DNA of 64,000 nucleotides from NCBI GenBank assembly GCA_027263115.1, contig GCA_027263115.1_3656.1; one strand, given 5' to 3'. The stretch is from a phage. A program made the translations under genes and the position numbers. Position 1 is the first letter of the stretch; every line of letters starts with the position of its first letter. A model generated the notes under the pieces. The model was given only the letters and a program-made list of their open reading frames with translations. It was not told the DNA's origin and did no database searches. This document shows positions 3,814 to 48,180 of this stretch, piece after piece.

Positions 3814-4077
3814 TCAGAAACCCTCTAAAAAGCTCTTGTAGAAAACAATCTCAGTATCCACACCAGTCACAATCTTGTCGTTCCTGATTTCATCGGTAAG
3901 ATAGGTGTCAAAACGCAGAACCTGTGTGGTGTTGTCACACATCCACTCAGCTGTGACCATTGCGAAAATCTTAGCATCTTCATTATCTGGTGTGAATGTT
4001 ACCACCTCACCGCACTTAAACTTTTCGATAGGTTGAGTGTTAGCTTTCGGTTCTGCGATAGTGATTTTTGTGGTCAT
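3814..4077 (-). CDS. small protein, tandem paralog 3 of 3
   Basis: 87 aa; same length as the two upstream ORFs, shared N-terminal pattern, ATGA overlap. Confidence 0.55.
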   Translation of the reverse strand: MTTKITIAEPKANTQPIEKFKCGEVVTFTPDNEDAKIFAMVTAEWMCDNTTQVLRFDTYLTDEIRNDKIVTGVDTEIVFYKSFLEGF

Positions 4078-4340
4078 TATTCTCCTCCTTCTTTTGAATA
4101 GCTTGTCTCTCCAAGGATGGTAATTTTGGTGTCAAGCTCTGTAACTTTCATGTTTGGTGGCAGATCGTACAACTCATTATTTTCTAAATCGAACCCCCAC
4201 ACACAATGTTCTCCTGTTTTGACAATCATAACTATGTTTTGAATGCCGTCTCCGTCGCAACTTACCACGGTCCCACACGGAAAGCTGTCTGCACGCTTTT
4301 TGTTCTTCACCTTAGAATTGAATACAATGCTGGTAGCCAT
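4077..4340 (-). CDS. small protein, tandem paralog 2 of 3
   Basis: 87 aa; MATxxxFxSxxKxKK start shared with the 4340-4603 paralog. Confidence 0.55.
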   Translation of the reverse strand: MATSIVFNSKVKNKKRADSFPCGTVVSCDGDGIQNIVMIVKTGEHCVWGFDLENNELYDLPPNMKVTELDTKITILGETSYSKEGGE

Positions 4341-4603
4341 TATTGTTCCTCCACCATAACTTCGCCAAGAATTTCTATGCAGGCATCCATTTCTGTAACA
4401 ACCAAACTGTGAGGTAGTTCTACAAACACCTTTCTGAACAGGTCAAATACCCCAACATATATGTTTGCAGGATGTGATTTTACAACAAGTGCTGTATTCA
4501 CATCCCCAAGTTCATCAACAAACATCACCACAGTGCCTGGAGCTACTGAGGACAGATACTTCTTAGTTTTACGGTTTGATGCAAATTTTAACTCTGTTGC
4601 CAT
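4340..4603 (-). CDS. small protein, tandem paralog 1 of 3
   Basis: 87 aa; first of three head-to-tail paralogs. Confidence 0.55.
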   Translation of the reverse strand: MATELKFASNRKTKKYLSSVAPGTVVMFVDELGDVNTALVVKSHPANIYVGVFDLFRKVFVELPHSLVVTEMDACIEILGEVMVEEQ

Positions 4604-22297: not shown

Positions 22298-24721
22298 ATG
22301 AGCATGTGGTCGTTCGACTTTGAGTCATCCGGTTTGCTGGAAGACCCAGATCTTTATTATCACTGCGGCCTGTTTAAAGAGCTGAATAAGAACCGTTTTA
22401 TGCTGTTCCTTCCTCTAAATGACCGCACACACTACTCCGAGGAGGATATAGAAAAGGCTAAGAACTTCATTCTGGCAAAGAAAACTCTTTATAAAGATTT
22501 TGAAGTTCGCATAGCAGATTTTTCAGAGTTGGAAGGTTGGCTTACAGGAAATTCTGACTGGTCACCAACAGCTTTGAACTGCCATAACTGCTACAGTTAT
22601 GACTTTATGCTGATGGAAAGATTATCTGGTATTCATTTTGATATGTTCCGTGATCCTAAATGTATGGGGACTATCAACGATCACCAGGTTAACCTGTTTG
22701 ATACGTTGGCGATGAGCCGAATCTTGTGGCCTGATCGCCCTTTACCAAAAGGTTGTCCGGACTCTGTATTCAACCCGGTTACTAAGAAAATGCAGCCTGT
22801 TGGTCCTCACGGCCTTATGGCATGGGGCTACGCCCTTGGTAACCAGAAAGTTCAAATTGATGACTGGCGCGATCTTCCGTTATGGAAGTATGTGGATCGT
22901 GTATTTGAGGACGTTATCATCCAGGAGCTGCTCTGGAAAGAGCTGGTAGCGGAATCAAAAGGTGTATTCTACGGCAAATCTGACATGCAGAACTTTATGT
23001 ACGATCCTGCCAAAGAGAAGCCGAAAGGGTTCAAGAAGATCACCTGGAAGAACGCATTACGTCGAGGCATGTTGCAGCACTTCCTGATGGAGCTGCAGGC
23101 CCGTCAGGGTGTATACTTCGACATAGATGGAGCTATTGCTTTACGTGACCGTTGCGATGCGTGGATGAAAGAAATCGCTGATCGTGTTGAACCACAACTG
23201 CCTTTAAAAGAGCTGTCAATGTCTCAGCGGCCCAAGTTCCCTGAAAAGCCGTTTAACCAAGATGGGACAATCTCTAATAATGGTTGGAAATGGTTAAAAG
23301 ATAAGCTTGGCTATCCTGTGGACATGAGTGCTTTAGAGTTCAAAGCCCCACCTAAGCGAGCATTTACCTCTACAGGAGATGTCAGTAAGATGGGGATAAA
23401 ATGGTGTGAAGAGATGGGCTGCAAAGACCACGATAAGATGGCTGATTTCTTGAGAGGCTATATTAAGGGCACCTCCACACCACAACCTTTACCTAAAGAG
23501 CTAATGGATCAGGCAATAAGTGATCTACAGCAGAAGCGAATGCCGGACTGCAAGATACCTATGAAAATCAGCAATCAGGACGACATTAAGCGATACCTGA
23601 TCAGTGCTGGTTGGCTTCCGACAATGTGGAGAACTAAGGATGTAACTAAAGACAGCAAGAAGAAAGCTTTACCTGATGCAGATGTTGATGCACGAGTATA
23701 TGCATATATGGACGAGCTTTTGGAGTCAGAGTATTGTGACCTAATTATCAACTTCTGGAACAAAACTGATGCTAAGTTCCAGACAACCGTGCACAAGTTC
23801 CGAAGCTTTCCTAACTCCGAAAGGATTAAAAAGGAAGTATTCGGGAAAATACGTAGAAAAGCTAGGGCACTTATTACTTCTCCGCAACTGAAAGATACGT
23901 TTGGACACCTGTGTCCGAATCTTGAAAAATTGAACGGAGAGATGGCTAAAGATATCGTCTTATGGTTATCATTGCGAAACCGCAGATCGGTACTTGATCC
24001 AATCAAGGAGGATAAGGTTGACACTGGTCTTCTTAATCACCCACGTTTGAAGATTGACCATAAGCTTCCTGCTAAAAGCTCTGGATTAACAAACACTTCC
24101 AGACAGAAACACAGTATTTGTGCAAACATGCCTAAACCCTCTCCTAAAGTGGTTATGGGTAAAGAGATGCGTAGCTTGTGGGGTGTTCCTCCAGGATACT
24201 TTGAGATCGGTATCGACGGGTCCAACTTAGAGCAGCTTATCGGGGCTTGGGGTGCCTTTGAGTTCGACAACGGCCTGTATTACGATGTTGTAAGTAACGG
24301 AGACGCACACCAAAACAATGCTGAGGCATATACAAAAGTAGCAGGCAGAGAGGTGTCCCGTAACGACGGTAAACCTATCACGTATGGGGTTATGTACGGG
24401 GCACAAAAAGATAAAGTTGCAGATATGCTGGACATCTCTCCAGAGTTGGGACAAAGGGTAATCGATGCGCTTTGGGATGCCAACCCTGGTCTTAAGGGCC
24501 GTAAAGAGGATCTGGAGAAATTCTGGGAAGCAACGGGTAAGAAGTTTATCTACTCTTTTGATGGTCATGCCATCTGGACCCGATCTAAACACTCTTTACT
24601 TAATGCATACCAACAGAATGGTGGTGCATCGCTGTGTGACTTGGTTGGGATACTTATGCACCACCAAATGGTGAAGCGTGGGTGGTACGATGAAGGTGTT
24701 CGTCGTATTATTTATTACCAT
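22298..24721 (+). CDS. family A DNA polymerase, exon 1 (3-5 exonuclease and polymerase motifs A and B)
   Basis: T7-like exo motif DFESSGLL...HCG, HGLMAWGYALG, motif B RNDGKPITYGVMYG; exon end placed at 24721 after His codon. Confidence 0.8.
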
Positions 24722-25564
24722 AAATAACATTGTGGCTTCATAGAGTGATCTATGTCGAATAACCTCTTTAATTGACGGGAAAGCTAAGTTGACTTTTACA
24801 CCTGAGTATGGTAAAAGCTCAATATGCTAATCCGCAGCGAAGACTAAAGGGGTGTAGTTAAAATGGCTAGAACAGCTGATTATCACGGGTATACCGTGTT
24901 TGATGATGGAACAATACCTTTATCGAAACGTGATCATACAACAATGTTTTGTTTTGATAATGGTAGAGGTTACCTTTGCGTAACCATGCTAATCGAGGGG
25001 AAGCAGTGCACAAAAGGTGTCCACCACCTGGTTGCTGAATGCTTTGTATCAAACCCAGATCCTGAAAGGCTCACATGGGTGAACCATAAGGATGGGAATA
25101 AGTACAACAATGCATACTGGAACCTGGAATGGACCACCCCTGGTGGAAATATCAAGCACGCCTATGATAATGACCTCAGAGTAAGGCCAGTTGGTGAGTA
25201 TAATGCCAACGCTGTGCTGACAGAAGATGAGGTAATAGAGATTTGCGAACTGTTGCAGAGTGGTCTACGACAATGCGAGATTAGGGATCTTGGATATCCT
25301 TATGAGACCGTCAGGGCTATAAAGCAAAGAAGACAGTGGAAACATATCTCTAAAAACTACACCTGGTAGTAACGTTCAGAGACTATCGAAAGCATAGCTC
25401 CAACACAGGTTGGTGTGAAGAAGCGAGTAGAGTAGGCCAGCAAGTGCGGTCGAAATGGGAGGTGCCTTGTTACCAAGGCAGTGAGGTAGTCCGATCCATA
25501 CAGGAAACTGTATGGCTATGCACGTAATGGTGCGGGGTAGCTTAACGACCTACCTGAACAGATG
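24722..25564 (+). mobile_element. group I self-splicing intron with embedded homing endonuclease ORF
   Basis: P element aattgacgggaaag (24770-24783), Q aatccgcagc (24839-24848), R gttcagagacta (25374-25385), S tagtcc (25487-25492); 5-prime exon ends in U, intron ends in G; 843 nt, multiple of 3. Confidence 0.75.
24863..25369 (+). CDS. HNH homing endonuclease (intron-encoded)
   Basis: HHLVAECF and VNHKDGNKYNNAYWNLEW match the HNH_3 family; own RBS. Confidence 0.85.
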   Translation: MARTADYHGYTVFDDGTIPLSKRDHTTMFCFDNGRGYLCVTMLIEGKQCTKGVHHLVAECFVSNPDPERLTWVNHKDGNKYNNAYWNLEWTTPGGNIKHAYDNDLRVRPVGEYNANAVLTEDEVIEICELLQSGLRQCEIRDLGYPYETVRAIKQRRQWKHISKNYTW

Positions 25565-25918
25565 GATGAGTACCAACTTCAGGTCCCTGACACGCCTAAG
25601 TATAAGACTGTGTACACCTTCGACACAATTGAAGAACTGGAAGCATTTAAGGCAGAGCAGGAAGCCAAACTTCATGTGTTCGACGGTCATAAGTACAAAA
25701 AGGCACGCAAGGATGAGGACGGAAACGAAGTGGTTGACAGAGATGGAAACACGGTGTACGATCCTATCCTGAACGATGACGGAAAGCTTGAACTTATCTG
25801 GAGCCCTGTGGGTGAAATGGTGGTGCATTGCTTCTGGCAAGCTTCTAAAATGATGGGCGTCCCGTTCCAGATCACAGGTGAATACCTGTGTGGTCGTAAT
25901 TGGGGGGATTGTCACTAA
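25565..25918 (+). CDS. family A DNA polymerase, exon 2 (motif C Asp-Glu and C-terminus)
   Basis: begins DEYQLQV giving spliced ...YYHDEYQLQV (motif C); ends GRNWGDCH like T7 GPNWAICH and Pol I GENWDQAH as recalled. Confidence 0.7.
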   Translation, partial: DEYQLQVPDTPKYKTVYTFDTIEELEAFKAEQEAKLHVFDGHKYKKARKDEDGNEVVDRDGNTVYDPILNDDGKLELIWSPVGEMVVHCFWQASKMMGVPFQITGEYLCGRNWGDCH

Positions 25919-29130: not shown

Positions 29131-30401
29131 TGAGCGTTATTCAACAATTCGCTAACCCGATGAATCCGCGTGAAACTGTTTTACTGGCTCACGGCATGAT
29201 TAAACGTGTCAGCATCAAGCCTATCAAAGGTGCTGATCCTACAACAGGTATTAAAACCACTGTGTGGCAAGGTAAGAAAATTGAATCCAGCCACACCATC
29301 TCTTTACTGATTTCTGAACTGGATTCCTCTGATAACCTGCTTCAAGGTGGTGAAGAAGTTTGGATCAGCATGGGTGATAAGCTGCTTAAACCGGGGCATC
29401 AAGACTCTGTCTCTGTTAAGATTGATGACAAGTGGGAAACCGTAACGCCAGGATGGATCGTAAATATTCCTTTGAAGGCAAACGAGCATAACGGTAAGAC
29501 CTATTACAAAGGCTCACTGGCTAAGATGGTTAAGCTGGGTGTAGGAGAGGCTCCAGCAGCGACTCAGCAGCAAAAACAGCAACAAGGTGCACAATCACAA
29601 GGCCAGAAGCAGAAACCTCAGCAGAATGCCAATCAGGACGTTTTACGCATCTATGGTGATGTGACTCAGATTGTTGGCAACGTGGTTACTGTTAATGACC
29701 ACAAGATTGGCGAAGGTGCTATGGTTGTAACTGATGAGCAGCTTAAAGACCTGGTGGTAGGTGGTCGTGTTGCAGCCATTGTTGACAAAGACACCGGAAA
29801 CATTATCAGTGGTTTCAAGGCCTATCCTCCTAAGGCAGAGAACGGCACTCAAGGCTCTGGTGGCAAGCGTAAATCCTCTTACGACCCTATCGGTGTGGAA
29901 ACGGGGCATAGCATCAATGCGTTGCAAATCATCCTGGATCGCGGGTTTAAGGTAGACGACCCACTAGGAGTGGCTAAAACACTACACGTAGTCACTATTG
30001 AGCTTAAGAAAGAGTATGCTCAAGCCACCAACCGAACTGAAGATGAAGTAGGTGCCAGTGTCGGTAATGCGGTGTTGAACGCTTGTCGCCGTATTGACAA
30101 GAAAACTAAAGTTGATGATTTTGCAGCGGCAATTACTGCAGAAGCAAAAGATGTCTTGACTAATCTGGCTGAGCCGTTGTACGATTGGATCAAGAACGGT
30201 GCTGGGTCAACTGACCATCAAGAACCTCAGGCTGCCAAACAGGAAGCAGCTCCACAGCAAAACACTGTAGACGCTCCTCCTGTAAATGATGAGGAAGATG
30301 ACCCAATGGATCAGAATCCAGCACAGTATGACTTCTGTGATGACATACCTTTCGCTCCAGTGGGTTTGCAATATGGCAAAAGTAGAATCCACGCATTGTA
30401 A
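29130..30401 (+). CDS. putative ssDNA-binding protein (SSB-like acidic tail)
   Basis: Gln-rich linker and near-C-terminal YDFCDDIPF resembling the E. coli SSB tip MDFDDDIPF, followed by 15 extra residues; OB-fold not confirmed. Confidence 0.4.
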
Positions 30402-30996
30402 GAGGTGCATCAAGTGCGGAGAGGTGAAAAACCTCTCCGAGTTCTACAAACACCCAAAGATGTCTGACGGTCATCTTAATAAGTGCAAAGAGTGTTGTAA
30501 GAAGGCCAGTAGGGAGGCTGACCAGTTTTCCCACGACTCTTCAGAAAAAGGTGTAATACGCGTGTTGTACAAGGCTCAAAAGTGCAACAGCAAGCAAAGA
30601 GGTCACCCTCCTCCGACTTACACCAAAAAAGAGTTTAAGGAGTGGCTATACCTGAACGGTTACAAAGAGTTGTATGACCAGTGGGTAGCCAGCGGATACG
30701 ACAAAAGGAAAAAGCCTTCTTGTGACAGGATAGATGATTTCAAAGGGTACTCTTTTGATAATATCCGTTTAACGACCTGGGGAGAAAATAAAGACAAGCA
30801 GACGGAGGATATTCTGTTGCATAGAAGCACCAGCGGTAGACGGTGTAAAAATGTAAGGAGGCTGGACATGAATGGAAACGTTCTTAAAGAATGGGTATCC
30901 CACAATTCTTGTAGAAGAGAAACCGGAATATGTGTTGATTACTACATTCATGAAAAAATTCCAGCCCCCGATGGATACCTCTACGAATACTTTTAG
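30372..30996 (+). CDS. HNH-like endonuclease with N-terminal zinc ribbon
   Basis: CKRCIKCG...CKEC ribbon and [19 protein letters not shown]...EN motif; start taken at internal ATG 30372. Confidence 0.5.
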
Positions 30997-31011: not shown

Positions 31012-31040
31012 GCCCTGCCCGAAAGGGTGGGGCATTTTTG
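31012..31040 (+). terminator. intrinsic terminator
   Basis: same gccctgcccgaaagggtggggc hairpin as at 19363, followed by ATTTTTG. Confidence 0.7.
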
Positions 31041-31058: not shown

Positions 31059-31475
31059 ATGACATTAGAAGATATCATTGTTAAACCTGAGAACTATGAC
31101 CAATACAACCTGTCAACTCAATCTGTAGACCTTGGATGCGCCACGGTCAGTGCGTGGCTGGTTAACGGAAAAGAGCTGGATAAATGCTTAGAAGCTCACA
31201 TGTCTATTAACAAGTTTCTGGATGAAAATACTCACTGGCTTGAGGGTGCAGGAGTATATGCTTCATGGTTGGAAAGTATGGGATTCGACTACCAATCTGA
31301 AGAAGGGTGGTGGAGCTATTTAGCTATCTGCCCAGAGACGCTGCAATGCTTCATGAAATATTCTGAAGATTTGGAGTACCGGGCGGTGGTTGATAGTGCT
31401 ATTGCCCGTTATAGCCGTAAACCTTTTTCCCACGACATTAAAACTGTGGAAGAGTTTGTTGAAGTTTTCTGTTGA
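31059..31475 (+). CDS. hypothetical protein
   Basis: 138-aa ORF with AAGGAGA RBS. Confidence 0.55.
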   Translation: MTLEDIIVKPENYDQYNLSTQSVDLGCATVSAWLVNGKELDKCLEAHMSINKFLDENTHWLEGAGVYASWLESMGFDYQSEEGWWSYLAICPETLQCFMKYSEDLEYRAVVDSAIARYSRKPFSHDIKTVEEFVEVFC

Positions 31476-31500
31476 CACAGGTGGAAAGGTGTGCAATTAT
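31472..31500 (+). promoter_or_regulatory. sigma70-type promoter
   Basis: TTGACA-17nt-AATTAT. Confidence 0.5.
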
Positions 31501-31571: not shown

Positions 31572-31769
31572 ATGATTTATCGAATCCGTGTAAGAGAAGA
31601 TGCACCAGGCTGTTACTTTGACTGGCGTGGGTGGTGGTTTCTCCACCCAATGGATGGACTCACAGATAGAATGCTGGATGCTGCCCTTTATACAGATACC
31701 GACATAGAATATAATCTCTATCTGAAGGACGGTATAGATAACGGCCTGTTTGAAGCAATTCCTGTGTAA
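31572..31769 (+). CDS. hypothetical protein
   Basis: 65-aa ORF with AGGAGG RBS. Confidence 0.5.
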   Translation: MIYRIRVREDAPGCYFDWRGWWFLHPMDGLTDRMLDAALYTDTDIEYNLYLKDGIDNGLFEAIPV

Positions 31770-31837: not shown

Positions 31838-32263
31838 ATGATCTATGAAATGCCAAAACTGATTCGTGACGATGCCCAAAACGCCCACACCTTTATCATG
31901 GGCAAGCGCATGGATATTATTTGTCATAAAGATTTCTGGGAAGGTAGTTACTTCACAGAATATTTTGGTAAACTGGATAATGGTCTGCTGATCCAGTTCT
32001 ACACCGATGCGGAAAACAATATCTGCTGGGAGTTCGAAACTGAAGATATCCATAAACTTTTCACCTTCCTAGGTATTAAGGTTGAGGCCAAGTTTGAAGA
32101 AGGCGAGTGCGACGATTGTGGATTCTACGAGGTAACAGATTTCTATCTCCCAAGTGGTGAGAACCTTTACTATGAAAGCCACTTCGGCAACTCAAATATG
32201 CCACAAGGTTGGGATGAGTTTTTTGAAATTGCGGAAGAGGAGCTGACATACCGTGATTATTGA
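31838..32263 (+). CDS. hypothetical protein
   Basis: 141-aa ORF. Confidence 0.5.
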   Translation: MIYEMPKLIRDDAQNAHTFIMGKRMDIICHKDFWEGSYFTEYFGKLDNGLLIQFYTDAENNICWEFETEDIHKLFTFLGIKVEAKFEEGECDDCGFYEVTDFYLPSGENLYYESHFGNSNMPQGWDEFFEIAEEELTYRDY

Positions 32264-32711
32264 TACTGTAGCGGGAGATTTAATCTCCCTTTTTAAGAGC
32301 GGTGCTGGTCACCTGATCCACGGTTGTAACTGCTTTCATACAATGGGTGCAGGCATAGCGAAAGATATTGCCCGTGAGTTCCCTCAAGCACTGGCAGCCG
32401 ACAAAGAGACTGCCTATGGTAATCTGGACAAGCTGGGTATGTTTTCTTGTTGGGAGCATTTTGCCAAGAACAGGGTCGTATATGGAATCAACCTGTATAC
32501 CCAGTTCTACCCAGGGCCCAATGCTGAATACTTCTCAATAATGAAAGGTTTTGAGCGAGTCAACGAGGTATTCAAAGGTGTGTCATTGCCGTTCTACATT
32601 CCTAAAATTGGATGCGGTATTGGCGGTCTAAAGTGGGAACATGTAGAAGATGTAATTAATCTTGCAACCACAGATATTGATGTGGTTGTAGTAGAGTACA
32701 AAAAGTGTTGA
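32253..32711 (+). CDS. macro-domain protein (ADP-ribose binding or hydrolase fold)
   Basis: GDLISL...LIHGCNCFHTMGAGIAKDI..FP and later IPKIGCGIGGL resemble the macro-domain N-A-A-N / GGGV and ISTGIYG blocks. Confidence 0.6.
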   Translation: MIIDTVAGDLISLFKSGAGHLIHGCNCFHTMGAGIAKDIAREFPQALAADKETAYGNLDKLGMFSCWEHFAKNRVVYGINLYTQFYPGPNAEYFSIMKGFERVNEVFKGVSLPFYIPKIGCGIGGLKWEHVEDVINLATTDIDVVVVEYKKC

Positions 32712-32961
32712 CGACCATCTTCTGAGGTGATATAGTTTCCACAACAACTAAGAGAGGAGAGCACTGTGGAGACTAAAATCTTAATTCTTGCTGTGGTAGA
32801 TACAACCGAAGGAGCTATATTCGAATCTGCAGGGGGGTATTTCTACCTACCATACGGAAAAAGAACTTCCGAGCCAAGTAAAGATTCAATCCTCAAGGTG
32901 TTCCCGTGTGCTTTCTGGCTGGAGATTTTGGTATAAGATTGCAGAGGATTTGGGAGAGAAT

Positions 32962-46269: not shown

Positions 46270-46880
46270 GTCTGATCTTCCCCCTACCATAAACGGCCCT
46301 ACCTGGCAAGTGGAATAATTGACGAGCCATCAACCCCACACACTGTACAAATATACATGTAAAATAACTATTGCATAACTTTTCATTGTGTGGTAGCAGG
46401 GCTATTTTTACCCGTTTTTCCTTCCAAAATTGCACGTAATGCAGCTATTGCACAAAATTTAACCTGATGCATATCTTCAGTGTCTTGTCAACAACTAAAA
46501 ATCTTTATAAGTCATGCACTTACATAACCACAAAAGCGTGCTCTACGTGAAAAATCGAGTATAACTATAGCCGCCAGATCTCAGAATTTACGTACGCTCA
46601 CCATTCTATAGTCTGCTAAGTATTTATTCCAACCATAGAATAACGGAATAGTCAATACCTGCATAAAATAATTATTCGTGTAAACTGCATAACATAAATC
46701 AGCTTAGGTGTCAACATTTTTCGTAAACAGTCTGAAATTATCACGATGAGTTATCATAAACAGAGAAATCTTTAGTCGTCTAATGTTTACTGTACGTTAC
46801 TATACTAACTGAAATCATTAGATGACTAATAGAAAGATAAGAAATAATTAACAATACAATTATTTTATCTGTAACAATAA

Positions 46881-47166
46881 GGCAACTATGCAAACGAATG
46901 GCATGGCGCGACGGAGTCGCGACATAATATAAAAGCAGTAACCATCACCCCCGTGATAGTTTGTCTGCAATCTATTAATCAGATCATAGTTGCCTTGTAT
47001 TTAGTTAATCATGACATAACAAGCAAGGCAACTATAGATCTGCTAATAGTTGCCCTGCTTTTATATTATGTCATAGGAACGCCCGAAGGGGTGACCTAGT
47101 CACCTGGCATAGCCAGCGAAAGATTATTAACTTGGTAATAGTTATCATGCAAACGAATGGCATGGC
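46881..47166. repeat. nested inverted-repeat structure flanked by 20-bp direct repeats
   Basis: direct repeat atgcaaacgaatggcatggc at 46888 and 47147; 18-bp inverted repeat gacataatataaaagcag (46921) vs ctgcttttatattatgtc (47055); 12-bp inverted repeat atagttgccttg (46986) vs caaggcaactat (47024). Confidence 0.6.
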
Positions 47167-47177
47167 TTATCATCTCT

Positions 47178-47300
47178 GTGTAAACAGTCAATCATGTAAA
47201 CTATTAGATATGTAAACAGTAAAGGGCGTGAACAGTAAGCGAGGGAATAGTAATAGCGTGAATAGTGACAGCGTAAACAGTGACAGCGTAAACAGTCAGG
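47178..47300. repeat. iteron-like GTAAACAGT repeats
   Basis: at least six copies of GT(A/G)AA(C/T)AGT, including two tandem 15-bp units gacagcgtaaacagt at 47267-47296. Confidence 0.6.
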
Positions 47301-47400
47301 CATGTCAATTATGTCATATTGTGTCACCATTATGTCACTATTGTGTCACCAGTATGCCCAGTATGTCAATTGAGTCTAAAGTGTCAAAGGTGTCAGACAA
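47301..47400. repeat. 10-bp-periodic TGTCA tandem array
   Basis: about ten units (catgtcaatt, atgtcatatt, gtgtcaccat ...) each containing TGTCA or a near variant at helical-turn spacing. Confidence 0.6.
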
Positions 47401-47859
47401 GTTTTTCTCCTCTTTGTCAAGTGCTGCATGAAAAATTTACAAGCTTGTATGGTAGCATTTTTGCGGCCCGTTTACATTCAGTGATGTATGTATAACCCTT
47501 GTTGTGTGGGAGTTTAGACGTCTAGACGGTTGGAAGTCTGCAGGTCAATATCTAATCTATCGGCTGCTAACTATATCCCACACAAATAGTAAGAAATATA
47601 ATTGTTATATGTGTAAACAGTAACTCATGTTATCAATCCCTGTATGGATCGCCAGTGGTGCGCATAATGGGTATTATGTTAAATTGCCCGTAATGATAAC
47701 AGTTCTCACAATGATAGGTATTCTCATTCATCCACACAAAATAGGTTGCAAATGTTGTGCCACTGTGTGAACGGCCTGGCCTATTAATTTCTCTCACTGC
47801 CTCGATATTTGAGGATTGTTATAAGAATGAGAAGTATTCCCATTCCGTCCGCCTGGCAG

Positions 47860-48180
47860 CGCTCCTGTAGGTCCTGCAAGGACTCTAGCTGAAAGCTAGA
47901 CCCTTCGGGCCTCCCTGTAGGTCAGGTCAAAATCGTGGCAGAACTGAGCCTGTTCAGATATTTCTGGCTGACTCTTCAGGTCTGTGTGGGAAAAGCCAAC
48001 CTCTCCGGCGGGGCAGGGGAGGGAGGTAAATTAAAAAATTTACGTGGTGTATGAAGCGCTCTTCAGGTAAGGCAGGTATTATGTGATGAAACCCTCTTCA
48101 GGCAATGATATTTGTGGGTGTGATATTTGCTGGAAAGCCAGATATGACGGGACTCCCGGCGGGGCAGGGGTAGTACAGAC
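47860..48180. repeat. G-rich direct repeats
   Basis: CCGGCGGGGCAGGGG at 48004 and 48155; CCTGTAGGTC at 47864 and 47914; CTCTTCAGG at 47972, 48059, 48094 (also 48508 and 49156). Confidence 0.5.

What the first reader, a model, noticed from the sequence alone, without database searches (positions are those of the whole stretch)
32253..32711. Macro-domain protein as a candidate ADP-ribosylation-reversal or anti-defence factor
The sequence pattern fits a macro domain (ADP-ribose binding or hydrolase). A phage macro domain could counter host ADP-ribosyltransferase toxins or defence systems, or process ADP-ribose-derived signals. It lies in a run of small genes of unknown function preceded by strong promoters.
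Basis: partly seen in the sequence, partly recalled or inferred. Interest (0 to 1): 0.6.

Follow-up and report, generated by a model that had tools for sequence, protein, structure and literature searches.

The report
Phage macrodomain, T4 AdfM-type anti-DarT homologue
This gene of an rV5-like coliphage encodes a small macrodomain enzyme related to phage T4's AdfM, so it most likely strips ADP-ribose off phage DNA to defeat the bacterial DarTG2 defence; this makes it a new member of a recently described family, not a new kind of system.

Summary
Window 32253-32711 (+) is a 152-aa GTG-start ORF that passes Pfam Macro. AlphaFold2 predicts a macro fold at pLDDT 95.3. The ORF is under purifying selection (dN/dS about 0.10).

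The window is a Vequintavirus (rV5-like coliphage). The protein is the reciprocal best hit of T4 Tk.4 (39% identity over the full length). A 2025 preprint renamed Tk.4 AdfM, because deleting it sensitises T4 to DarTG2.

The closest solved structures are DarG, TARG1, SCO6735, BT1257 and Poa1p. The ADP-ribose-binding motifs are invariant. The catalytic lysine of DarG, TARG1 and PhiKZ AdfM is replaced by an almost invariant glutamine (Q84), as in SCO6735, which still removes thymidine-linked ADP-ribose and rescues cells from DarT.

Some relatives are fused to NADAR, the guanine-ADP-ribose eraser. That independently ties the family to reversal of DNA ADP-ribosylation.

The most likely function is a stand-alone "orphan antitoxin" that reverses DarT2 modification of phage DNA. 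This is inferred, not tested, for this phage.

The main rivals are Poa1p-like processing of ADP-ribose metabolites and supply of ADP-ribose to NARP1. The NARP1 idea is weakened because the phage has no NARP1 genes.

The parts
32253..32711 (+). Macrodomain gene (152 aa, GTG start, TGA stop). Homologue of T4 Tk.4/AdfM.
   Evidence: ORF. Pfam Macro 25.9 bits against a cut-off of 22. phrog_335 at 1.4e-59. AF2 pLDDT 95.3. PDB fold hits Poa1p, TARG1, DarG, BT1257 and SCO6735. 39% identity to T4 Tk.4, E 8e-43. dN/dS about 0.10.
32237..32242 (+). Shine-Dalgarno-like GAGGAG, 10 nt upstream of the GTG start. It lies inside the 3' end of the preceding ORF, which suggests translational coupling.
   Evidence: Read from the sequence. 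Conserved in Vequintavirus orthologues.
32328..32330 (+). Codon of Asn26. It is the equivalent of DarG N22 and PhiKZ AdfM N23, a distal-ribose contact.
   Evidence: Invariant in the 93-sequence alignment A1, in 88 of 88 loci and in 257 of 258 relatives. Aligned to PhiKZ N23 in A2. Residue roles are taken from PMC13309987.
32343..32360 (+). First phosphate-binding loop, M31-G-A-G-I-A36.
   Evidence: M31, G34 and A36 are invariant; G32, A33 and I35 are at least 90% conserved. Aligned to MGKGIA of DarG and MGAGIA of TARG1.
32502..32504 (+). Codon of Gln84, at the position of the catalytic lysine of DarG (K80), TARG1 (K84) and PhiKZ AdfM (K78). It corresponds to SCO6735 Gln85.
   Evidence: Profile-to-PDB alignments and alignment A2. 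Invariant in A1. Q in 87 of 88 loci and 250 of 258 relatives. Role of SCO6735 Q85 from PMC9411070.
32601..32627 (+). Second phosphate-binding loop, P117-K-I-G-C-G-I-G-G125.
   Evidence: P117, G120 and G122 are invariant; I119 and G125 are at least 90% conserved. Aligned to the PxxGxGxxG loops of DarG, SCO6735 and TARG1.
31838..32263 (+). Upstream ORF (141 aa, phrog_8157, unknown function). It overlaps the macro gene by 11 nt and is probably co-translated with it.
   Evidence: No Pfam family.
31572..31769 (+). Small ORF (65 aa, phrog_9903, unknown function) in the same probable transcription unit.
31472..31500 (+). Nearest upstream sigma-70-like promoter match after the terminator (TTGACA, 17 nt spacer, AATTAT, with TG). 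It is a candidate promoter for the three-gene unit that ends with the macro gene.
   Evidence: Consensus scan, 10 of 12. A pattern match only.
31012..31033 (+). Intrinsic-terminator-like hairpin (9 bp, 7 G-C pairs, T-run) that closes the upstream unit.
   Evidence: sequence.
32708..32736 (+). Promoter-like site (TTGACG, 17 nt spacer, TATAGT, with TG) overlapping the macro stop codon. It would start the next small-gene unit.

Best explanation
The gene encodes a stand-alone, 152-residue macrodomain ADP-ribosyl-glycohydrolase of the ALC1-like class (TARG1, DarG, SCO6735, Poa1p). It is the Vequintavirus counterpart of phage T4 Tk.4/AdfM.

Proposed mechanism:
1. The protein is made from the early/middle small-gene region, downstream of the DNA polymerase gene.
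2. It binds the ADP-ribose that a host DarT2-type toxin has attached to thymidines in single-stranded phage DNA.
3. It hydrolyses the ribose-base bond, releasing free ADP-ribose and restoring a template that can be replicated and packaged.

In effect it is an orphan antitoxin carried by the phage.

Catalysis would not use the DarG/TARG1 lysine. That position is an invariant glutamine, as in Streptomyces SCO6735, where Gln85 positions the distal ribose and a backbone-held water is proposed to start the reaction.

Shown here: the fold, the class, the conserved ADP-ribose-binding residues, homology to T4 AdfM, the Gln substitution, purifying selection and the NADAR fusions. Inferred: the substrate (dT-ADPr DNA), the catalytic activity and the anti-DarTG2 role in this phage.
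For: - Macro fold: Pfam above threshold; AF2 pLDDT 95.3; Foldseek top hits are Poa1p, TARG1, DarG (Thermus aquaticus and M. tuberculosis), BT1257, SCO6735 and the Thermosipho DarTG complex, TM 0.70-0.76; profile against PDB gives 4e-14 to 4e-12 for the same set.
- Homology to T4 Tk.4: 39% identity over 152 aa, E 8e-43, shared motifs HGCNCFHTMG, NLYTQF.PGPN and P(K/R)IG.GIG. It is the only significant hit of Tk.4 in a whole Vequintavirus genome.
- Literature: tk.4 was the single significant hit of a T4 transposon screen on DarTG2, and a clean knockout sensitised T4 to DarTG2 (10.1101/2025.11.20.689424). A macrodomain AdfM of chimalliviruses removes DarT2-made ADP-ribose from DNA (PMC13309987). 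SCO6735, which has Gln at the lysine position, removes dT-ADPr, rescues E. coli from DarT, and is inactivated by Q85A (PMC9411070).
- Active site: N26, the two glycine loops and Q84 are invariant across the family.
- Domain fusion: five relatives carrying the same H23/N26/D50/Q84 signature are fused to NADAR (PF08719), the guanine-ADPr DNA eraser of DarG1 and AdfN. One of them also matches Phage_30_3, the T4 AdfN family.
- A functional gene: dN/dS about 0.10; present in about 117 Vequintavirus records at 80% or more amino-acid identity.
Against: - No experiment exists for this protein or for any Vequintavirus on DarTG2. The preprint's Bas54 (Vequintavirus) screens did not include DarTG2.
- The T4 evidence is genetic only. 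De-ADP-ribosylation by T4 AdfM is the authors' inference.
- Identity to T4 AdfM is 39%, so the substrate could differ.
- The SCO6735 lysines that position DNA are not conserved. K34 corresponds to A33 in this allele; the other Vequintavirus allele has K33. K89 has no counterpart.
- In some phages the family sits inside NARP1 operons, which suggests another or an additional role.
- Bacterial members are orphan and not next to DarT.
Confidence: 0.65

Rival explanations
1. Metabolite-processing macrodomain of the Poa1p type ('phosphatase'). It would hydrolyse 1''-substituted ADP-ribose derivatives (ADP-ribose-1''-phosphate, O-acetyl-ADP-ribose) to free ADP-ribose. Possible purposes are to clear the product of the phage's own SIR2-family enzyme or of RNA repair, or to feed ADP-ribose into NAD+ reconstitution (NARP1).
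For: - Poa1p is the top Foldseek hit (E 3e-9).
- The residues mutated in the Poa1p structures have counterparts: H23 aligns to H23 (at least 90% conserved) and S30 to T30.
- A 2025 paper made the same argument for the Pakpunavirus homologue, which lies next to NARP1 (PMC12846349).
- In Vibrio phage Ceto the homologue (still with Q) sits between a PRPP-synthetase-like gene and a NAPRT-like gene, overlapping the upstream gene's end by 4 nt. Three of 80 IMG/VR loci have a Namat-like gene within 6 kb.
- The Vequintavirus genome encodes a SIR2-family protein and polynucleotide kinase/phosphatase genes elsewhere.
Against: - tblastn finds no Adps-like or Namat-like gene in the window or in the whole rV5_ev168 genome.
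- The SIR2 gene is about 50 kb away and outside the window.
- NARP1 linkage is a minority pattern (3 of 80 loci).
- ADP-ribose-1''-phosphatase activity is, to my knowledge, a common side activity of macrodomains.
- The only phenotype on record for a family member is DarTG2 sensitivity.
- The NADAR fusions point to nucleic-acid ADP-ribosylation.
Confidence: 0.12
2. Eraser of protein or RNA ADP-ribosylation. It would reverse marks placed by other host toxins or defences (for example mRNA ADP-ribosylation by CmdT-type toxins, or protein-targeting ARTs) or by competing phages, rather than DarT2 marks on DNA.
For: - TARG1 and SCO6735, from the same class, also hydrolyse protein-linked ADP-ribose; SCO6735 works on both substrates (PMC9411070).
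- The first loop of this allele (MGAGIA) is identical to that of TARG1.
- The family is very widespread: 2,831 phage records and 1,273 cluster representatives at E <= 1e-30. That would fit a broad-spectrum eraser.
Against: - There is no genetic or biochemical evidence for such targets in any family member.
- The TARG1 Lys/Asp dyad used on protein glutamate esters is absent (Q84).
- No ART gene appears in the annotated Vequintavirus genome.
Confidence: 0.15
3. Non-catalytic binder. It would act as a sponge for ADP-ribose-derived immune signals (gcADPR or His-ADPR of Thoeris), or as a stoichiometric inhibitor that binds DarT itself.
For: - Macro domains bind His-ADPR in Thoeris ThsA (10.64898/2026.06.04.730250).
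- One fusion relative weakly matches the ThsA_Macro model (26.5 bits).
- Catalytically dead SCO6735 still inhibits DarT by interaction (PMC9411070).
Against: - The residues needed for hydrolysis in SCO6735 and DarG (Asn, and Gln at the lysine site) are almost invariant. A pure sponge would not need that.
- The protein lacks the C-terminal DarT-binding domain of DarG: it matches only positions 4-144 of the 338-position NCBIfam model.
- There is no evidence of Thoeris evasion.
Confidence: 0.05

Closest known systems
Phage T4 Tk.4 = AdfM (anti-DarT factor Macrodomain), preprint 10.1101/2025.11.20.689424
   Same: Same size (152 against 154 aa) and a single macro domain. 39% identity end to end, reciprocal best hits. 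Same motifs, including N26 and the Gln at the DarG-lysine position. Both lie among small early or middle genes of a large lytic myovirus of E. coli.
   Different: A different virus family (Vequintavirinae, not Straboviridae) and different neighbours: T4 has tk.3 and vs, here there are two unknown ORFs. No DarTG2 phenotype has been measured for the Vequintavirus gene.
Chimallivirus AdfM (PhiKZ gp104), PMC13309987
   Same: A phage-borne stand-alone macrodomain of the DarG-like class. The Asn is conserved (PhiKZ N23 = N26 here). It has been shown to remove DarT2-made ADP-ribose from DNA.
   Different: Only 22% identity. PhiKZ keeps the DarG catalytic lysine (FPTK, K78) where this protein has LYTQ (Q84). 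PhiKZ AdfM is imported into the phage nucleus, and Vequintaviruses have none. The two 'AdfM' proteins therefore belong to separate subfamilies.
DarG2 antitoxin macrodomain (Thermus aquaticus and M. tuberculosis DarG; PDB 5M31, 5M3E, 5M3I)
   Same: Same fold and class (TM 0.72-0.76). Profile E 4.7e-14. Best NCBIfam and PADLOC models. Asn and glycine loops conserved.
   Different: No catalytic Lys80 (Gln instead). No C-terminal DarT-binding domain: 47 bits against the cut-off of 250, and only model positions 4-144 of 338 matched. No adjacent darT. Encoded by a virus.
Streptomyces coelicolor SCO6735 (PDB 5E3B) and Bacteroides BT1257 (2FG1/2AFC)
   Same: Orphan ALC1-like macrodomains with Gln at the DarG/TARG1 lysine position; the Gln aligns to Q84. 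SCO6735 hydrolyses dT-ADPr on DNA and rescues cells from DarT, and its Q85A mutant is dead (PMC9411070).
   Different: About 20-24% identity. The SCO6735 DNA-positioning lysines K34 and K89 and its longer mobile loop are not conserved; A33 stands here, though the other Vequintavirus allele has K33. The phage family has its own invariant residues (C27, D50, N80, Y82).
Human TARG1/OARD1 and yeast Poa1p
   Same: Top structural matches. The first loop MGAGIA is identical to that of TARG1. The His23, Asn26 and Ser/Thr30 positions are shared with Poa1p.
   Different: The TARG1 Lys84/Asp125 dyad is absent. Both are eukaryotic enzymes acting on protein-ADPr, O-acyl-ADPr or ADP-ribose-1''-phosphate. 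Poa1p is longer (166-180 residues) with insertions (rmsd above 4 A).

Membership tests
Macro domain superfamily (Pfam PF01661) | Sequence match above the curated gathering score | tested here: met
   25.9 bits against a cut-off of 22, E 1e-5. 55 of the first 120 homologues also carry a precomputed PF01661 hit or better.
Macro domain superfamily (Pfam PF01661) | Three-layer alpha/beta/alpha macro fold | tested here: met
   AF2 pLDDT 95.3, pTM 0.90. 188 PDB matches at E <= 1e-3, headed by macrodomains.
Macro domain superfamily (Pfam PF01661) | Binds ADP-ribose | not testable with these tools
   Only inferred, from the invariant Asn26 and the two Gly-rich phosphate loops. No docking or binding assay was possible.
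ALC1-like macrodomain class (TARG1, DarG, SCO6735, Poa1p) | Closest sequence and structure relatives belong to this class rather than to the MacroD, PARG or viral nsP3 classes | tested here: met
   Profile against PDB: BT1257, DarG, SCO6735, TARG1 and Poa1p at 4e-14 to 4e-12, against nsP3 macrodomains at 2e-3. Foldseek gives the same ordering.
T4-type AdfM (Tk.4 family) | Full-length homology and reciprocal best hit with T4 Tk.4 | tested here: met
   39% identity, E 8e-43, residues 2-150 against 1-151. Tk.4 finds only this ORF in the window and in the whole rV5_ev168 genome.
T4-type AdfM (Tk.4 family) | Family signature residues H23, N26, D50, N80, Y82, Q84 and the two glycine loops | tested here: met
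   All are present and shared with T4 Tk.4. Q84 occurs in 250 of 258 relatives.
T4-type AdfM (Tk.4 family) | Needed for phage growth on a DarTG2 host | not testable with these tools
   Shown for T4 only. The Vequintavirus Bas54 libraries were not challenged with DarTG2.
T4-type AdfM (Tk.4 family) | Removes thymidine-linked ADP-ribose from ssDNA | not testable with these tools
   Not yet shown even for T4 AdfM; the preprint calls it 'seems likely'. Shown for SCO6735 and PhiKZ AdfM.
DarG antitoxin (NCBIfam NF048014) | Score above the equivalog cut-off; two-domain architecture with a C-terminal DarT-binding domain | tested here: not met
   47.3 bits against a cut-off of 250. Only model positions 4-144 of 338 are matched, and the protein ends at residue 152.
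DarG antitoxin (NCBIfam NF048014) | Catalytic lysine (K80 of Thermus aquaticus DarG) | tested here: not met
   Q84 aligns to the FPTK lysine of M. tuberculosis DarG, Paracoccus DarG and PhiKZ gp104.
DarG antitoxin (NCBIfam NF048014) | Encoded next to a darT (DUF4433) toxin gene | tested here: not met
   The neighbours are small phage ORFs of unknown function. No DarT-like gene lies in 58 bacterial loci of the family. The Lys-type Paracoccus homologue, by contrast, does sit next to a DUF4433 gene.
SCO6735-like Gln-type DNA ADP-ribosyl hydrolases | Gln at the position of the DarG/TARG1 catalytic lysine | tested here: met
   Q84 aligns to the Gln of NMIGQHG in SCO6735 and BT1257. SCO6735 Q85 is essential.
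SCO6735-like Gln-type DNA ADP-ribosyl hydrolases | DNA-positioning lysines (K34, K89) and an extended mobile loop | tested here: not met
   A33 stands at the K34 position in this allele, and K33 in the rV5_ev168 allele. There is no Lys four residues after Q84 (QFYPGPN).
Poa1p-like ADP-ribose-1''-phosphate phosphatase | Counterparts of Poa1p His23, Asn26, Ser30 and Gly33 | tested here: inconclusive
   H23, N26, T30 and the Gly loop align. The same residues are also found in DNA-acting class members (the His is present in SCO6735, BT1257 and TARG1), so they do not discriminate.
NARP1-associated macrodomain | Co-located with Adps and Namat genes | tested here: not met
   No Adps-like or Namat-like gene in the window or in the whole rV5_ev168 genome. 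The association is seen in Vibrio phage Ceto and in 3 of 80 IMG/VR loci.

The most novel reading that the evidence does not exclude
The T4/Vequintavirus-type AdfM family is a separate, lysine-independent (Gln-type) clade of phage ADP-ribose erasers. It is distinct from the Lys-type AdfM of chimalliviruses and from DarG, and it may have a wider substrate range than dT-ADPr DNA.

Three observations feed this reading:
- The family recurs as fusions with NADAR.
- It is embedded in NARP1 operons in some phages.
- Two deeply diverged alleles (A33 or K33 at a DNA-positioning site) are swapped between otherwise near-identical Vequintavirus genomes.

Together these would mean the enzyme is a tunable module. 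It would both erase ADP-ribose marks and, where NARP1 is present, return the released ADP-ribose to NAD+.
Probability: 0.2. Interest if true: 0.5.

Novelty: new member of a known kind. Interest (0 to 1): 0.3.

Why it matters
DarTG systems block phages by ADP-ribosylating their DNA, and phage-borne erasers decide whether a phage can grow on such hosts. Recognising this gene as a T4-type AdfM gives a testable prediction: rV5-like phages, which are used in therapy cocktails and in the BASEL collection, should resist DarTG2 because of it.

The invariant glutamine shows that the two proteins already named AdfM use different active sites. That matters for inhibitor design and for predicting specificity. 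The NADAR fusions and the NARP1 linkage are leads on how phages combine ADP-ribose counter-measures.

The general idea has already been published for T4 and PhiKZ, so the gain is incremental.

Tried and rejected
1. DarG membership is rejected. The protein has no C-terminal domain, no catalytic Lys and no darT neighbour.

2. A NARP1 partnership in this phage is rejected. tblastn with Ceto gp175 and gp177 found nothing in the window or in the whole rV5_ev168 genome, although the linkage is real in Ceto and a few IMG/VR contigs.

3. DarT adjacency of bacterial family members was looked for. None was found in 58 loci, which are mostly chromosomal in Rhodobacterales.

4. A terminator-like hairpin with a T-run lies inside the 5' end of the ORF (32273-32289). 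It looked conserved, with an apparently compensatory change in phage JK32. The fold energy is no better than shuffles (z = -0.16), so I treat it as a by-product of the GDLISLF codons.

5. A NADAR gene in the window was searched for with an HMM built from the fusion proteins, and none was found.

6. The Osterman 2024 NARP paper and the LeRoux 2022 DarTG paper are not held in the library. Statements about them rest on citing papers only.

7. ADP-ribose docking and distance measurements in the model were not possible, because the model coordinates are not exposed.
Full report
**Observation**

An ORF occupies exactly 32253..32711 on the + strand. It has a GTG start, encodes 152 aa and ends with TGA. 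A GAGGAG Shine-Dalgarno-like motif lies 10 nt upstream. The start overlaps the end of the preceding ORF (31838..32263) by 11 nt, so the two are probably translationally coupled. The N-terminus MIIDTVAGDL aligns from residue 1 with T4 Tk.4 (MIVKYIKGDI), which supports this start.

The protein passes the Pfam Macro gathering score (25.9 against 22 bits). It matches phrog_335 ('phosphatase') at 1.4e-59. It also matches the N-terminal macro part of the DarG models of NCBIfam (47 bits, cut-off 250, model positions 4-144 of 338) and of PADLOC (1.4e-13).

**Where the window comes from**

The 3.5 kb around the gene is 98% identical to Escherichia phage naam and 95-97% identical to more than 100 other Vequintavirus (rV5-like) genomes. 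Several GenBank records already label the gene 'macro domain protein', 'Poa1p-like family protein' or 'phosphatase'.

The gene lies about 7 kb downstream of the DNA polymerase gene, in a long run of small + strand ORFs. The ten neighbours I scanned fall in PHROG families of unknown function, apart from one endonuclease VII-like gene, and have no Pfam family.

A strong terminator-like hairpin (31012-31033) precedes the local unit. A 10-of-12 promoter-like site with an extended -10 lies at 31472-31500. Another promoter-like site overlaps the macro stop codon (32708-32736). The 27-37 kb region has twice the shuffled expectation of sigma-70-like sites (36 against 18.3 +/- 4.4).

**Fold and class**

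With a 93-sequence alignment (A1), AlphaFold2 gives mean pLDDT 95.3 and pTM 0.90. The Foldseek hits in the PDB are, in order, Poa1p, TARG1, DarG of Thermus aquaticus and M. tuberculosis, BT1257, SCO6735 and the Thermosipho DarTG complex. Their TM-scores are 0.70-0.76.

A profile of A1 finds the same proteins at 4e-14 to 4e-12. Coronavirus nsP3 macrodomains score only 2e-3. The protein is therefore a macrodomain of the ALC1-like class, roughly equidistant from its characterised members.

**Active site**

The invariant columns of A1 are G24, N26, C27, M31, G34, A36, D50, N80, Y82, Q84, P117, G120 and G122.

- N26 aligns to DarG N22 and to PhiKZ AdfM N23.
- The two glycine loops (MGAGIA and PKIGCGIGG) align to the phosphate-binding loops.
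- Q84 aligns to the lysine of FPTK in M. tuberculosis DarG, a Paracoccus DarT-linked DarG and PhiKZ gp104. By my count of the PhiKZ sequence that lysine is K78, the residue the Cell Reports paper names as catalytic. Q84 also aligns to K84 of TARG1.
- Q84 aligns to the glutamine of NMIGQHG in SCO6735 and BT1257.

The glutamine is present in 87 of 88 loci; the exception is the true DarG. It is present in 250 of 258 relatives, and T4 Tk.4 has it too.

PMC9411070 reports the following for SCO6735, which lacks the DarG/TARG1 catalytic residues. It removes thymidine-linked ADP-ribose from DNA more efficiently than DarG or TARG1. It rescues E. coli from DarT. Q85A kills it. The authors propose that Gln positions the distal ribose and that a backbone-held water starts the reaction.

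The phage family fits this Gln type but differs in two respects. It lacks the SCO6735 DNA-positioning lysines (A33 here). It also has its own invariant D50, whose role I could not examine.

**Link to a known function**

The protein is 39% identical to T4 Tk.4 over the full length (E 8e-43). Tk.4 finds only this ORF in the window and in a whole Vequintavirus genome.

The HIDEN-SEQ preprint (10.1101/2025.11.20.689424) reports that tk.4 was the single significant hit when a T4 transposon library was grown on DarTG2. A clean knockout sensitised T4 to DarTG2. The authors named the gene adfM and state that enzymatic removal of ADP-ribose from DNA 'seems likely'. This agrees with an earlier finding that T4 lacking adfA and adfN stays resistant to DarTG2 (PMC11825919).

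A separate study gave the same name, AdfM, to a macrodomain of chimalliviruses and showed that it removes DarT2-made ADP-ribose from DNA (PMC13309987). That protein is only 22% identical to the window protein and keeps the lysine. The two 'AdfM' proteins are therefore different subfamilies, and the window protein belongs to the T4 type.

**Independent support**

- *Family size and fusions.* A profile search of 1.84 billion cluster representatives finds 1,273 relatives at E <= 1e-30, most of them stand-alone proteins of about 150 aa. I scanned ten longer relatives. Five are fusions of this macro type (H23, N26, D50 and Q84 all present) with a NADAR domain, and one of these also matches the T4 gp30.3 (AdfN) family. 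NADAR is the guanine-ADP-ribose DNA eraser of DarG1 and AdfN (PMC11825919). A single polypeptide joining both erasers is what one would expect if this macro family also acts on ADP-ribosylated DNA.
- *Distribution.* The family is overwhelmingly viral. tblastn finds it in 2,831 of 50,697 phage records. Its signature motif finds only 58 loci in one genome each of 185,579 prokaryotic species, mostly Rhodobacterales, and none is next to a DarT gene.
- *Selection.* dN/dS against Vequintavirus orthologues is about 0.10.

**An allele swap**

Against rV5_ev168 the flanks are 99-100% identical, but identity falls to 75-83% exactly across the macro gene (32300-32749) and returns to 99% at its stop codon. 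For the gene, dS is about 1.0 and dN/dS is 0.10.

Two old alleles therefore circulate in near-identical genomes. About 44 phage records carry the window type and about 73 the rV5 type, judging from the identity bands. The 23 amino-acid differences cluster in the hairpin at residues 66-75. They include A33K in the first phosphate loop, the position of SCO6735 K34. This is compatible with adaptation to different toxin variants, but that was not tested.

**Rivals**

- *Poa1p-like metabolite processing.* The 'phosphatase' label comes from Poa1p. H23, N26 and T30 do align with Poa1p H23, N26 and S30. A 2025 paper on a Pakpunavirus proposed that its homologue feeds ADP-ribose to the adjacent NARP1 (PMC12846349). 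I found the homologue inside a NARP1-like operon in Vibrio phage Ceto, as gp175-gp176-gp177, and near Namat-like genes in 3 of 80 IMG/VR loci. However, the window and a complete Vequintavirus genome contain no Adps-like or Namat-like gene. The SIR2-family gene of these phages is about 50 kb away.
- *Protein or RNA de-ADP-ribosylation, and signal sponging.* Neither can be excluded, and neither has direct support.

**Verdict**

The gene is a new, untested member of the recently named T4-type AdfM family. The mechanism (hydrolysis of thymidine-linked ADP-ribose on phage DNA by a Gln-type macrodomain) is inferred from homology, conserved residues, the T4 knockout and the NADAR fusions.

I put 0.65 on the anti-DarT2 role and about 0.95 on 'ADP-ribose-binding macrodomain hydrolase'. 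Interest is modest (0.3), because the concept is already published. The glutamine signature, the NADAR and NARP1 associations and the allele swap are the parts a specialist might find new.

Noticed in passing
window 24722-25564 (inside the DNA polymerase gene, 22298..25918): The DNA polymerase gene is interrupted by an 843-bp insertion that is absent from rV5_ev168. The polymerase reading frame stops at 24727 and resumes at 25565 with 100% identity. The insert gives a full-length but sub-threshold match to the group I intron model (RF00028, 28 bits against 50, E 8e-5). It holds a 168-aa ORF (24863..25369) with a weak HNH_3 hit. It is probably a mobile group I intron with a homing endonuclease.
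   Followed up: partly
window 30286-30996: An endonuclease VII/HNH-like ORF (phrog_1035, 2e-41) overlaps the end of the preceding 423-aa gene. It is present in rV5_ev168 but cleanly absent from phage A51.2 (alignment gap at about 30350-30990). It looks like a free-standing homing endonuclease, present in some genomes and absent from others.
   Followed up: partly
window 32300-32749, compared with L002 (rV5_ev168): Nucleotide identity drops to 75-83% exactly over the macro gene, while the flanks are 99-100% identical. dS is about 1.0 and dN/dS is 0.10. Two old alleles are being exchanged by recombination among Vequintaviruses. They differ at A33/K33 and in the hairpin at residues 66-75.
   Followed up: partly
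L009 (Vibrio phage Ceto) 3135-6149; also L072, L062 and L079: A homologue of the macro protein (Gln retained) sits between a PRPP-synthetase-like gene and a NAPRT-like gene, overlapping the upstream gene's end by 4 nt. In other words it lies inside a NARP1-like NAD+ reconstitution operon. I found no mention of a macrodomain in the NARP3 paper that reviews NARP1.
   Followed up: partly
proteins P0137, P0177, P0219, P0247, P0252: These are natural fusions of this macro family with NADAR (PF08719). P0137 also carries DUF4326, and P0247 also matches the T4 gp30.3 family. A single protein would then combine thymine-type and guanine-type ADP-ribose erasers. I could not look up which contigs encode them.
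   Followed up: partly
window about 46440-48000: This stretch of about 1.5 kb has no convincing ORF and lies between the rightward small-gene block and the leftward genes. It is rich in GTAAACAGT-type iterated motifs (46668-47640), has an 11-nt tandem triplet (47317-47356) and several inverted repeats. The HIDEN-SEQ preprint reports that a roughly 2 kb intergenic region of Bas54 tolerates no transposon insertions. It may be an origin or a control region.
   Followed up: partly
window 32273-32289: A terminator-like hairpin (7 bp) with a T-run lies inside codons 7-15 of the macro gene. The stem is kept, with an apparently compensatory change, in Krischvirus JK32. The folding energy is not better than shuffles (z = -0.16), so it is probably a coding by-product.
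   Followed up: yes
L007 (Shigella phage JK32, Krischvirus) 4001-4456: This T4-like phage carries, at the tk.4 position next to vs, a macro gene 69% identical to the Vequintavirus protein. That is much closer than T4 Tk.4 (39%) and suggests transfer between Straboviridae and Vequintavirinae.
   Followed up: no
public records matched: Sixteen records named 'Campylobacter phage' (for example MG065654) are about 96% identical to this coliphage region. A 137.6-kb E. coli 'plasmid' in PLSDB (CP057073.1) encodes a 94%-identical macro protein. Both look like Vequintavirus genomes filed under other labels.
   Followed up: no
rV5_ev168 record 67742-68503 (outside the window; L006 17743-18504): Vequintaviruses encode a SIR2-family 'NAD-dependent deacetylase'. 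Its product, O-acetyl-ADP-ribose, would be a substrate for many macrodomains. The gene is not linked to the macro gene.
   Followed up: no
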